DNA of 64,000 nucleotides from the human T2T-CHM13v2.0 reference genome, Homo sapiens, in NCBI GenBank assembly GCA_009914755.4, contig CP068257.2, positions 8,512,001 to 8,576,000 of the forward strand, read 5' to 3'. A program made the translations under genes and the position numbers. The number at the start of each line of letters is the position of its first letter. The stretch's first letter is position 1. Positions 7,451 through 11,000 of the stretch are shown here, one piece after another. Under the pieces are notes generated by a model. The model was not told the origin of the DNA. It did no database searches and saw only the letters and a list, made by a program, of their open reading frames with translations.

Positions 7451-7668
7451 GTTTTATTATTATTATTATGCTTTAAGTTTTAGGGTACATGTGCACAAAC
7501 TGCAGGTTACTTACATATGTATACATGTGCCATGCTGGTGAGCTACACCCACTAACTCGTCATCTAGCATTAGGTATATCTCCTAATGCTATCACTCTCG
7601 CCTCCTCACAACCTGCAACAGTCCCCAGAGTGTGATGTTCCCCTTCCTGTGTCCATGTGTTCTCATTG

Positions 7669-8233
7669 TTCAATTCCCACTTATGAGTGAGAATATGCTT
7701 TGTTTGTTTTTTTTGTTTTTGCGATAGTTTACTGAGAATGATGATTTCCAGTTTCATCCATGTCCCTACAAAGGACATGAACTCATCATTTTTTATGGCT
7801 GCATAGTATTCCATGGTGTATATGTGCCACATTTTCTTAATCCAGTCTATCATTGTTGGACATTTGGGTTGGTTCCAAGTCTTTGCTATTGTGAATAGTG
7901 CCACAATAAACATACGTGAGCATGTGTCTTTATAGCAGCATGATTTACAGTTCTTTGGGTATATACCCAGTAATGGGATGGCTGGGTCAAATGGGATTTC
8001 TAGTTCTAGATCCCTGAGGAATCGCCACACTGACTTTCACAATGGTTGAACTAGTTTACAGTCCCACCAACAGTGTAAAAGTGTTCCTATTTCTCCACAT
8101 CCTCTCCAGCACCTGTTGTTTCCTGACTTTTTAATGATTGTCATTCTAACTGGTGTGAGATAATATCTCACTGTGGATTTGATTTGCATTTCTCTGATGG
8201 CCAGTGATGGTGAGCATTTTTTCATGTGTTTTT
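7669..8233 (-). pseudogene. L1 ORF2 C-terminal fragment (direct 3' segment of the twin-primed element)
   Basis: Minus-strand ORFs 7560..8030 and 8037..8225 translate to [28 protein letters not shown]…CWRGCGE…[10 protein letters not shown] and …[25 protein letters not shown]…[32 protein letters not shown], which is the canonical ORF2 C-domain. The stop (rc 'tca') is at 7669-7671. Confidence 0.9.
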
Positions 8234-11000
8234 AGGATATCCAGGAATTGAACTTAGCTCTGCACCAAGCGGACCGAATAGACATCTATAGAACTCTCCA
8301 CCCCAAATCAACAGAATATACATTTTTTTCAGGACCACACCACACCTATTCCAAAATTGACCACATAGTTGGAAGTAAGGCTCTCCACAGCAAATGTAAA
8401 AGAACAGAAATTATAATAAACTGTCTCTCAGACCACAGTGCAATCAAACTAGAACTCAGGATTAAGAAACTCACTCAAAACCACTCAAATACATGGAAAC
8501 TGAACAACCTGCTCCTGAATGACTACCGGATACATAACAAAATGAAGGCAGAAATAAAGATGTTCTTTGAAACAACGAGAACAAAGAAACAATATACCAG
8601 AATCTCTGGGACACATTCAAAGCAGTGTGTGAGGGAAATTTATAGTACTAAATGCCCACAAGAGAAAACAGGAAAGATCCAAAATTGACACCCTAACATC
8701 ACAATTAAAAGAACTAGAAAAGCAAGAGCAAACACATTCAAAAGCTATTAGAAGGCAAGAAATAACTAAAATCAGAGCAGAACTGAAGGAAATAGAGACA
8801 CAAAAAACCCTTCAAAAAATTAATGAATCCAGGAGCTGGTTTTTTGAAAGGATCAACAAAATTGATAGACCGCTAGCAAGACTTATAACGAAAAAAAGAG
8901 AGAAAAATCAAATAGACGCAAGAAAAAATGATAAAGGGTATATCACCACCGATCCAACAGAAATACAAACTACCATCAGAGATTAATACAAACACCTCTA
9001 TGCAAATAAACTAGAAAATCTAGAAGAAATGGATAAATTCCTTGACACATACACTCTCCCTAGACTAAACCAGGAAGAAGTTGAATCTCTGAATAGACCA
9101 ATAACAGGAGCTGAAATTGTGACAATAATCAATAGCTTACCAACCAAAAAGAGTCCAGGATCAGATGGATTCACAGCCGAATTCTACCAGAGGTACAAGG
9201 AGGAACTGGTACCATTCCTTCTGAAACTATTCCAATCAATAGAGAAAGAAGGAATCCACCCTAACTCATTTTATGAGGCCAGCATCATCCTGATACCAAA
9301 GCCGGGCAGAGACACAACAAAAAAAGAGAATTTTAGACCAATATCCTTGATGAATATTGATGCAAAAATCCTCAATAAAATACTGGCAAACCGAATCCAG
9401 CAGCACATCAAAAAGCTGATCCACCATGATCAAGTGGGCTTCATCCCTGGGATGCAAGGCTGGTTCAATATAAGCAAATCAATAAACCTAATCCAGCATT
9501 TAAACAGAACCAAAGACAAAAACCACATGATTATCTCAATAGATGCAGAAAAGGCCTTTGACAAAATTCAACAACCCTTCATGCTAAAAATTCTCAATAA
9601 ATTAGGTATTGATGGGACATATCTCAAAATAATAAGAGCTATCTATGACAAACCCACAGCCAATATCACACTGAATGGGCAAACACTGGAAGCATTCCCT
9701 TTGAAAACTGGCACAAGACAGGGATGCCCTCTCTCACCACTCCTATTCAACATAGTGTTGGAAGTTCTGGCCAGGACAATCAGGCAGGAGAAAGAAATAA
9801 AGCGTATTCAATTAGGAAAAGAGGAAGTCAAATTGTCCCTGTTTGCAGACAACATGATTGTATATCTAGAAAACCCCATTGTCTCAGGCCAAAATCTCCT
9901 TAAGCTGATAAACAATTTCAGCAAGTCTCAGGATACAAAATCAATGTACAAAAATCACAAGCATTCTTATACACCAACAACAGAAAAACAGAGAGCCAAA
10001 TCATGAGTGAACTCCCATTCACAATTGCTTCAAAGAGAATAAAATACCTAGGAATCCACCTTACAAGGGACATGAAGGACCTCTTCAAGGAGAACTACAA
10101 ACCACTGCTCAAGGAAATAAAAAAGGATACAAGGAAATGGAAGAACATTCCATGCTTATGGGTAGGAAGAATCAATATCATGAAAATGGCCACACTGCAA
10201 AAGGCAATTTATGGATTCAATGCCATCCCCATCAAGCTACCAATGATTTTCTTCACAGAATTGGAAAAAACTGCTTTAAAGTTCAAATGGAACCAAAAAA
10301 GTGCCTGCATCGCCACGTCAATCCTAAGCCAAAAGAACAAAGGTGGAGGCATCATACAACCTGACTTCAAACTATACTACAAGGCTACAGTAACCAAAAC
10401 AGCACGGTACTGGTACCAAAACAGAGATATAGATCAATGGAATAGAACAGAGCCCTCAGAAGTAATGCCGTATATCTACAACTATCTGATCTATGACAAA
10501 CCTGAGAAAAACAGGCCATGGGGAAAGGATTCCCTATTTAATAAATGGTGCTGGGAAACTGGCTAGCCATATGAAGAAAGCTGAAACTGGATCCCTTCCT
10601 TATACCTTATACAAAAAATCAATTCAAAATGGATTAAAGACTTAAACGTTAGACCTCAAACCATAAAAACCCTAGAAGAAAACCCAGGCATTACCATTCA
10701 GGACATAGGCATGGGCAAGGACTTCATGTCTAAAACAACAAAAGCAATGGCAACAAAAGCCAAAGTTGACAAATGGGATGTAATTAAACTAAAGAGCTTC
10801 TGCACAGCAAAAGAAACTACCATCAGAGTGAACAGGCAACCCACAAAATGGAGAAGATTTTTGCAACCTACTCATCTGACAAAGGGCTAATATCCAGAAT
10901 CTACAATGAACTCAAACAAATTTACAAGAAAAAAACAAAGAACCCTATCAAAAAGTGGGTGAAGGACATGAACAGACACTTCTCAAAAGAAGACATTTAT
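8234..11000 (+). pseudogene. L1 ORF2 fragment (EN C-terminal end, RT domain, most of the C-domain), with frameshifts; inverted relative to the element's 3' end
   Basis: ORFs 8248..8688, 9029..10006, 10003..10566 and 10848..11108 carry ORF2 motifs: [45 protein letters not shown], the [11 protein letters not shown] (FADD-type) motif, [15 protein letters not shown], and …[17 protein letters not shown]. There are several frame breaks. Confidence 0.9.

What the first reader, a model, noticed from the sequence alone, without database searches (positions are those of the whole stretch)
7451..11000. L1 insertion with a twin-priming inversion signature inside the satellite
On the element's own (minus) strand the 5' portion (10995→8234) is inverted L1 ORF2 sequence, about aa 165-1087. 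The 3' portion (8233→7451) is direct L1, aa ~1091 to the end, plus the 3'UTR and A-rich tail. The two parts are contiguous in L1 coordinates with only ~9 nt lost at the inversion point. An inverted 5' segment abutting a direct 3' segment with a tail, with a small junction deletion, is exactly what Ostertag and Kazazian describe for twin priming during TPRT.
Basis: partly seen in the sequence, partly recalled or inferred. Interest (0 to 1): 0.5.

Follow-up and report, generated by a model that had tools for sequence, protein, structure and literature searches.

The report
Ordinary twin-primed L1 in alpha satellite
This is a decayed 3.5-kb LINE-1 retrotransposon copy in monomeric alpha satellite whose front 2.8 kb is flipped, the well-known "twin priming" outcome seen in about a fifth of L1 insertions, so it is real but ordinary.

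Summary
Window 7455-11001 is one L1 insertion on the minus strand, inside 171-bp monomeric alpha satellite.

- **Direct block:** 8233→7455 on the minus strand. It holds ORF2p from K1089/1090 to the end, the 3'UTR and a short (TAA)n-type tail.
- **Inverted block:** 8234→11001 reads L1 sense on the plus strand, ORF2p D164 to Y1086.
- **Adjacency:** in four uninverted L1 copies in the same window, the two break ends lie 3-4 nt apart (…ATTTATG|CAG|CCAAAAAACACATG). Only 3-8 nt of L1 are missing.
- **Geometry:** the end that abuts the direct block in L1 coordinates sits next to the flank, not at the internal junction. Twin priming predicts exactly this.
- **TSD:** one 12-14-nt pair brackets the whole element: GATAAACTTGTTT and GAGGAACTTCTTT, 10/13 identical. 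Removing the L1 and one copy restores a 170-bp monomer.
- **Age:** the blocks carry equal private divergence, 4.2% and 4.1%.
- **Independence:** neither block has its own tail or TSD, and no inverted repeats sit at the breakpoints.

L1s are common in monomeric alpha satellite, and 18-22% of L1 insertions are 5'-inverted. This is a textbook case and of low interest. In passing, a second L1 at 38055-38459 shows the same geometry with a 20-nt inverted block.

The parts
7442..7454 (+). Left (tail-side) target-site duplication copy, GATAAACTTGTTT. This is alpha-satellite sequence ending at the first-strand nick (…CTTNTTT/GTG).
   Evidence: The left flank holds the complete 19-nt ACAGAAG…GTGATG spacer found in 72 of 78 monomers. 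TRF ends the left array at 7454.
7455..7469 (-). L1 3' terminus and short A-rich tail of (TAA)n type. It reads ATAATAATAATAATA on the element strand.
   Evidence: Compared with the tails of the other in-window L1 copies, whose 3' termini read GTATAATAATA[A/G]… before the tails diverge (copy D has GGATAATAATAA…).
7470..7669 (-). L1 3'UTR of the direct (polyA-primed) block.
   Evidence: 91-92% identical to the 3' ends of four other L1 copies. It starts after the position of the ORF2 stop (TGA at 7672-7670).
7670..8233 (-). Direct block, ORF2 C-terminal region (ORF2p K1089/1090 to the end). It is decayed, with an internal stop and a frameshift near the end.
   Evidence: E = 9e-142 to human LINE-1 ORF2p chains.
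8233..8236 (.). Internal inversion junction, TTTTT|AGG|ATATCC. A8234 fits the inverted block. GG 8235-8236 fits both blocks, giving 0-2 nt of microhomology.
8234..11001 (+). Inverted (internally primed) block. L1 sense lies on the plus strand, ORF2p D164 to Y1086. It includes the end of the endonuclease domain and the RT domain, with many stops and frameshifts.
9293..9919 (+). Reverse-transcriptase domain (Pfam RVT_1) within the inverted block. The active-site FADD motif has mutated to FADN.
11001..11013 (+). Right (inverted-block-side) target-site duplication copy, GAGGAACTTCTTT. G11001 (and T11000) is shared with L1 …TATG, giving 1-2 nt of microhomology at the internal priming site.
   Evidence: TRF starts the right array at 11000.

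Best explanation
A single L1PA-type LINE-1 RNA inserted into a monomeric alpha-satellite array by target-primed reverse transcription with twin priming.

**Inferred steps**
1. L1 endonuclease nicked the window's plus strand at …AAACTTCTTT/GTGATG.
2. The T-rich 3' end annealed to the A-rich tail of the RNA and primed cDNA 1. This is now 7455-8233, antisense L1 on the plus strand.
3. The minus strand was nicked 13 nt away. Its 3' overhang (…AAGTTYCTCA-3') annealed inside the same RNA at …UAUG, with 1-2 nt of complementarity, and primed cDNA 2. This cDNA copied L1 from ORF2 codon 1086 back to codon 164, giving 11001→8234 as antisense L1 on the minus strand.
4. cDNA 1 stopped where the second primer sat, a few nucleotides downstream on the RNA.
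5. The two cDNA 3' ends were joined at 8233/8234 with 0-2 nt of microhomology, and the gaps were filled.

**Result**
The outcome is a 5'-inverted, 5'-truncated 3.55-kb L1 flanked by a 13-nt TSD. It has since decayed (about 4% private substitutions, many stops, FADD mutated to FADN) and has no function.

**Shown versus inferred**
The anatomy is shown: block orientation, L1 coordinates, TSD register and equal divergence. The order of enzymatic steps is inferred from the published twin-priming model.
For: - **Orientation and adjacency.**: the two blocks match uninverted in-window L1 copies in opposite orientations. The break ends fall at 53407/53412 and 48922/48927, a 4-nt interval between the alignments.
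- **Junction sequence.**: the inverted block ends …GACATTTATG and the direct block starts CC(T)AAAAACACATG. The four reference copies read …ATTTATGCAGCCAAAAAACACATG (copy C lacks one of the two Cs).
- **Protein coordinates.**: ORF2p coordinates are 164-1086 and 1089/1090 to the end. E-values are 3.6e-60 and 8.9e-142 (8uw3_A rows).
- **TSD register.**: the 19-nt spacer between alpha landmarks is complete in the left flank, and its last 12-14 nt are repeated in the right flank; removing 7455-11013 restores a 170-bp monomer that is 81-82% identical to its neighbours, like any other monomer there.
- **Equal age.**: private substitutions are 84/1993 (4.21%) in the inverted block and 29/713 (4.07%) in the direct block.
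- **No recombination substrate.**: there are no substantial inverted repeats at the breakpoints.
- **Literature.** PMC12016303: 18-22% of L1 insertions carry a 5' inversion, 46% of these have the two cDNA ends within 20 bp, and the median TSD is 13 bp. PMC2837659 describes the model and its hallmarks. Altemose et al., bioRxiv 10.1101/2021.07.12.452052: L1s are common in monomeric alpha satellite.
Against: - The TSD copies differ at 3 of 13 positions. That is somewhat more than the ~1 mismatch expected at 4% per-copy divergence (P ≈ 0.09), so the TSD rests mainly on monomer register.
- Complementarity between the top-strand primer and the L1 RNA is only 1-2 nt and is no better than at most L1 positions.
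- The nick site CTTT/G is one base off the canonical TTTT/G.
- Sequence alone cannot distinguish twin priming from a later inversion with the same breakpoints.
Confidence: 0.93

Rival explanations
1. A plain 5'-truncated 3.55-kb L1 inserted in the minus orientation. Its 5' 2.77 kb was inverted later by a chromosomal rearrangement, with one breakpoint exactly at the L1/flank boundary and the other inside ORF2.
For: The final structure would be identical to what is seen (inference). Alpha-satellite arrays do undergo inversions; the array itself flips strand at about 2566.
Against: It needs one breakpoint to coincide to the nucleotide with the element's 5' end while leaving the TSD intact. No inverted repeats lie at 8234 and 11001 that could drive recombination. 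Twin priming yields this structure in roughly one L1 insertion in five.
Confidence: 0.03
2. Dual priming or template switching: the two strands of the staggered break were extended on two different L1 RNAs, rather than on one RNA primed twice.
For: Meyer et al. (PMC2837659) propose dual priming as a possible mechanism. Extension of the two ends on different mRNAs has been seen in cell models (bioRxiv 10.1101/2024.12.14.628481).
Against: Two independent RNAs would abut within ±8 nt of L1 coordinates only about 0.3% of the time. Dual priming as proposed starts on the second RNA's poly(A), but the inverted block starts inside ORF2. The blocks have equal divergence.
Confidence: 0.02
3. Two independent L1 insertions, adjacent or nested, in opposite orientations.
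For: L1 fragments are frequent in this array: there are three others at 23393-24266, 29544-30623 and 38055-38459.
Against: The plus-strand block ends inside ORF2 (Y1086) with no 3'UTR and no tail, so it cannot be a TPRT product on its own. There is only one TSD pair, and it brackets both blocks. The L1 coordinates abut within 3-8 nt.
Confidence: 0.01
4. An assembly artefact, such as a mis-join of reads within repetitive sequence.
For: None from the sequence. Satellite regions are generally hard to assemble (general knowledge).
Against: The junctions show exactly the fine structure of a biological event: a TSD in register, adjacent L1 coordinates and a 170-bp restored monomer. A mis-join would not create these.
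Confidence: 0.01

Closest known systems
5'-inverted L1 insertions produced by twin priming (Ostertag & Kazazian 2001, as described in PMC2837659 and PMC12016303)
   Same: An inverted 5' block and a direct 3' block with a tail lie inside one TSD pair. The flank-side end of the inverted block is adjacent in L1 coordinates to the start of the direct block, with a small gap of 3-8 nt. Microhomology at the priming site and at the internal junction is 0-2 nt. The TSD is about 13 nt, equal to the published median.
   Different: Nothing essential. The inverted cDNA (2768 nt) is longer than the germline median (751 nt), and the direct cDNA (about 780 nt) is near the median of 571 nt. The tail is a short (TAA)n remnant. 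The nick site is CTTT/G rather than TTTT/A or TTTT/G.
L1PA (primate LINE-1) insertions in monomeric, divergent alpha-satellite layers (Altemose et al., bioRxiv 10.1101/2021.07.12.452052)
   Same: The L1 is embedded in HOR-less alpha satellite whose monomers are 78-90% identical. Such layers are reported to hold many L1s, and strand flips also occur.
   Different: The subfamily could not be named here because no L1 consensus library was available. From memory of the diagnostic sites, the 3'UTR carries GAG (not the ACA of L1HS-Ta) and A (not G) near the tail, so it is older than L1HS-Ta.
Human L1 ORF2p (PDB 8uw3, 8sxt, 9k6g)
   Same: The translated blocks align to residues 164-281+, 1038-1086 and 1090-1266 with about 90% identity. 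Pfam RVT_1 matches at E = 3e-37.
   Different: The reading frame is destroyed: one frame holds 36 stops, there are several frameshifts, and FADD has become FADN.

Membership tests
LINE-1 (L1) TPRT insertion | Sequence homologous to L1 ORF2 and the 3'UTR | tested here: met
   91-92% DNA identity to other L1 copies. E-values of 3.6e-60 and 8.9e-142 to solved human ORF2p (8uw3_A rows). RVT_1 domain present.
LINE-1 (L1) TPRT insertion | [quoted passage not shown] | tested here: met
   The tail is ATAATAATAATAATA at 7469→7455 and runs into the AAA of the TSD. It is short and not pure poly(A), as expected for an old copy.
LINE-1 (L1) TPRT insertion | Target-site duplication of about 7-20 nt flanking the whole insertion | tested here: met
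   The 12-14-nt duplication is shown by alpha-monomer register. The copies are 10/13 identical. Excising the L1 and one copy gives a 170-bp monomer.
LINE-1 (L1) TPRT insertion | Endonuclease-type nick site (TTTT/A, TTTT/G or TTTC/A) | tested here: inconclusive
   The inferred nick is CTT[C/G]TTT/GTG, that is TTT/G preceded by C or G. This is one base off TTTT/G.
Twin-priming 5'-inverted L1 | Two L1 blocks of opposite orientation within one TSD pair, with the tail-side block in sense orientation | tested here: met
Twin-priming 5'-inverted L1 | The flank-proximal end of the inverted block adjoins the 5' end of the direct block in L1 coordinates, with a small gap or overlap | tested here: met
   The sequence reads …ATTTATG | CAG missing | CCAAAAAACACATG…, a gap of 3-8 nt.
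Twin-priming 5'-inverted L1 | Both blocks derive from one RNA (same subfamily and same age) | tested here: met
   private divergence of 4.21% versus 4.07%. This is consistent with one RNA but not proof. Subfamily naming was not possible with these tools.
Twin-priming 5'-inverted L1 | Complementarity between the top-strand overhang and the L1 RNA at the internal priming site, and microhomology at the internal junction | tested here: inconclusive
   There are 1-2 nt (TG) at the priming site and 0-2 nt (GG) at the junction. This is not above chance for a single locus. The literature says such microhomology is short or absent.
Twin-priming 5'-inverted L1 | The inversion arose during integration, not afterwards | not testable with these tools
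   This needs orthologous loci from other primate genomes, and no such collection is available here.

The most novel reading that the evidence does not exclude
Two of the four L1 insertions embedded in this stretch of alpha satellite are 5'-inverted (7455-11001 and 38055-38459). Conceivably, alpha-satellite targets or their chromatin favour early second-strand nicking, and so twin priming, above the genome-wide 18-22%. With n = 4, the chance of 2 or more at a 20% rate is about 18% (my arithmetic), so the evidence is negligible.
Probability: 0.04. Interest if true: 0.3.

Novelty: already known. Interest (0 to 1): 0.07.

Why it matters
It matters little beyond correct annotation. The two oppositely oriented L1 pieces at 7455-8233 and 8234-11001 should be counted as one insertion event, not two. 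That affects counts and dating of L1s used to age alpha-satellite layers. The intact TSD in monomer register also shows that the array has not been rearranged at this point since the insertion. From about 4% private divergence, I roughly estimate the insertion at some 20 million years old.

Tried and rejected
- **Extended primer complementarity.** I asked whether extended complementarity between the 13-nt top-strand overhang and the L1 RNA explains the choice of priming site. It does not. Identity downstream of the break is 1-2 of 13, matched or exceeded at 87-99% of L1 positions.
- **Upstream similarity.** By eye, the alpha sequence just upstream of the TSD (AGAAGCAATC…) resembles the L1 sequence just upstream of the break (AGAAGACATTTATG). 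The end-anchored alignment score is reached at 11% of L1 positions, so I treat it as chance.
- **Inverted repeats at the breakpoints.** I looked for repeats at 8234 and 11001 that could have driven a later inversion. Only weak, chance-level pairs appeared.
- **Paralogous empty site.** I looked for one in neighbouring higher-order-repeat units. The array has no HOR structure; all monomers are 78-90% alike, so none exists in the window. My first monomer segmentation, with too loose a landmark, failed and was redone.
- **C and D as one duplicated insertion.** I tested whether the L1 fragments at 23393-24266 and 29544-30623 are duplicates. Their flanks are only 80-83% identical, so they are independent.
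- **Other searches.** Direct translation of the block for a PDB search failed because of 36 stops, so I used open pieces instead. The original papers of Ostertag & Kazazian 2001 and Szak et al. 2002 are not held. An Rfam scan of the window found nothing.

Full report
**Context.** The first ~40 kb of the window is alpha satellite with a 171-bp period (TRF). It is monomeric: any two monomers are 78-90% identical and there is no higher-order periodicity. The array changes strand at about 2566. Several L1 pieces interrupt it. Altemose et al. report that L1s are common in monomeric alpha satellite and virtually absent from HOR arrays (bioRxiv 10.1101/2021.07.12.452052). An L1 in this setting is therefore expected.

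**The observation.** I ran BLAST of 7451-11000 against the whole window.
- 8234-11000 matches two ordinary L1 copies (50627-53407 and 46758-48922) in the same orientation at 91-92% identity.
- 7452-8236 matches, in reverse orientation, the sequence that follows immediately in those copies (53412-54197 and 48927-49717), and also the 3' ends of the L1 fragments at 29846-30623 and 23483-24266.
- The region is therefore two L1 blocks of opposite orientation. In an intact L1 the two break ends lie 4 nt apart.

**ORF2p coordinates.** Translated pieces were compared with solved human ORF2p structures (8uw3 numbering).
- The plus-strand block runs from D164 to Y1086.
- The minus-strand block runs from K1089/K1090 to the C-terminus, followed by the 3'UTR and a short ATAATAATAATAATA tail.
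- Pfam finds the RT domain at 9293-9919.
- The coding capacity is destroyed: one frame holds 36 stops, there are several frame changes, and FADD has become FADN.

**Fine structure of the breaks.** Four uninverted in-window copies read …GAAGACATTTATGCAGCCAAAAAACACATGAAAAAATGCTCA… (copy C lacks one of the two Cs).
- The plus-strand block ends …GAAGACATTTATG at 11001 and continues into alpha satellite (AGGAACTTCTTTGTGATG).
- The minus-strand block begins CCTAAAAACACATGAAAAAATGCTCA at 8236/8233.
- Only CAG is certainly missing. TG at 11000-11001 could equally be alpha sequence, and GG at 8235-8236 fits both blocks, so the loss is 3-8 nt.
- The L1 position that adjoins the direct block lies at the flank-side end of the inverted block, 2.8 kb from the internal junction. 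This is the specific geometry of twin priming, in which the top-strand overhang primes internally and copies toward the RNA 5' end (model as described in PMC2837659).

**Target-site duplication.** In this array the spacer between the landmarks ACAGAAG and GTGATGTG is 19 nt in 72 of 78 monomers.
- The left flank holds all 19 nt (CAATCGGATAAACTTGTTT) up to the first tail base at 7455.
- The right flank repeats the last 12-14 nt ((TG)AGGAACTTCTTT) before GTGATG.
- The TSD copies are 7442-7454 GATAAACTTGTTT and 11001-11013 GAGGAACTTCTTT, identical at 10 of 13 positions.
- Deleting 7455-11013 gives a 170-bp monomer that is 81-82% identical to its neighbours, like any other monomer.
- Three mismatches are slightly more than expected at 4% per-copy divergence (P ≈ 0.09). 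Each is a single departure from the alpha consensus, and the G variant at the CTT[C/G]T position also occurs in the nearby monomer at 6582 (CTTGTCT).
- The inferred first-strand nick, CTT[C/G]TTT/GTG, is one base off TTTT/G.

**One event or two?**
- Private substitutions, counted at sites where two reference copies agree and this element differs, are 84/1993 (4.21%) in the inverted block and 29/713 (4.07%) in the direct block. The blocks are therefore of equal age.
- The inverted block has no 3'UTR, no tail and no TSD of its own, so it cannot be an independent TPRT product.
- Two independent fragments would abut within ±8 nt about 0.3% of the time.
- No inverted repeats flank the breakpoints, so a later recombination has no obvious substrate.
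- A later inversion with exactly these breakpoints cannot be excluded from sequence alone. It would, however, need one breakpoint to coincide exactly with the element's 5' end.

**Comparison with what is known.** In long-read data, 18.4% of germline and 21.9% of somatic L1 insertions carry a 5' inversion. In 46% of these, the end of the non-inverted cDNA and the start of the inverted cDNA lie within 20 bp. The median TSD is 13 bp (PMC12016303). This element fits on every count. Only its inverted cDNA (2768 nt against a germline median of 751 nt) is on the long side. Microhomology at the priming site (1-2 nt) and at the internal junction (0-2 nt) is minimal. This agrees with reports that such microhomology is short or absent (PMC2837659). 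It is not statistically distinguishable from chance here.

**Age.** About 4% private divergence suggests an L1PA element roughly 20 million years old. That figure is my estimate from general neutral-rate knowledge, not a tool result. From memory of the diagnostic sites, the 3'UTR carries GAG rather than the L1HS-Ta ACA. The subfamily could not be named without a consensus library.

**Seen in passing.** The L1 fragment at 38055-38459, also on the minus strand, has the same architecture in miniature.
- Its direct 3' block starts at …ATATACACCATGG.
- That block is preceded by a 20-nt piece, ATAGACTGGATCAAGAAGAT, in the opposite orientation. This piece matches 18 of 20 nt of the L1 sequence lying just upstream, with 7-9 nt missing (GTGGCAC, possibly also AT).
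- The element is bracketed by a TSD of about 10 nt in alpha register.
- Two inverted elements out of four is not significantly above the genome-wide rate.

**Verdict.** The coordinates are refined: element 7455-11001, TSD 13 nt, L1 loss 3-8 nt. This is a textbook instance of a common, well-described outcome of L1 integration in a genomic compartment where L1s are common. It is of low interest and not novel.

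Noticed in passing
window 38055-38459: A second 5'-inverted L1 in the same satellite, on the minus strand. Its ~385-nt direct 3' block is preceded by a 20-nt L1 piece in the opposite orientation (38440-38459, ATAGACTGGATCAAGAAGAT). In L1 that piece lies just upstream of the direct block, with 7-9 nt missing. A TSD of about 10 nt ([G/T]AGCAGTTT region) flanks the element. This looks like twin priming with a very short inverted cDNA.
   Followed up: partly
window ~2560-2570: The alpha-satellite array changes strand. Monomers at 1-2568 are the reverse complement of those at 2564-7454, and the GC skew flips. 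This is an inversion breakpoint within the satellite.
   Followed up: partly
window 23393-24266 and 29544-30623: Two further 5'-truncated L1 3' fragments lie in the alpha satellite, both on the plus strand and uninverted, with poly(A) tails running into the alpha AAAAACTA site. Their flanks are only 80-83% alike, so they are independent insertions. The 29544 copy seems to lack about 30 nt of alpha sequence at its 5' junction, a possible target-site deletion.
   Followed up: partly
window ~41900-54200: Beyond the satellite edge (about 39.8-40 kb) the sequence is L1-rich. An older L1 lies at 41923-44334, about 75% identical to the query. Two L1PA copies in sense orientation lie at 46758-49717 and 50627-54197, each with its own tail. 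GC drops to 0.275 at 41-42 kb and peaks at 0.49 at 45-46 kb.
   Followed up: no
window 58412-58668: A tandem repeat of a 43-bp unit, 6 copies at 94% matches (TGACTAGGCGATAACTGCCCTCCTTCTCTTCTATCTGCCCCTG), sits in a GC-richer stretch.
   Followed up: no
window 9839-9862: The RT active-site motif of the inverted block reads [12 protein letters not shown] has mutated to FADN, one of many inactivating changes.
   Followed up: yes
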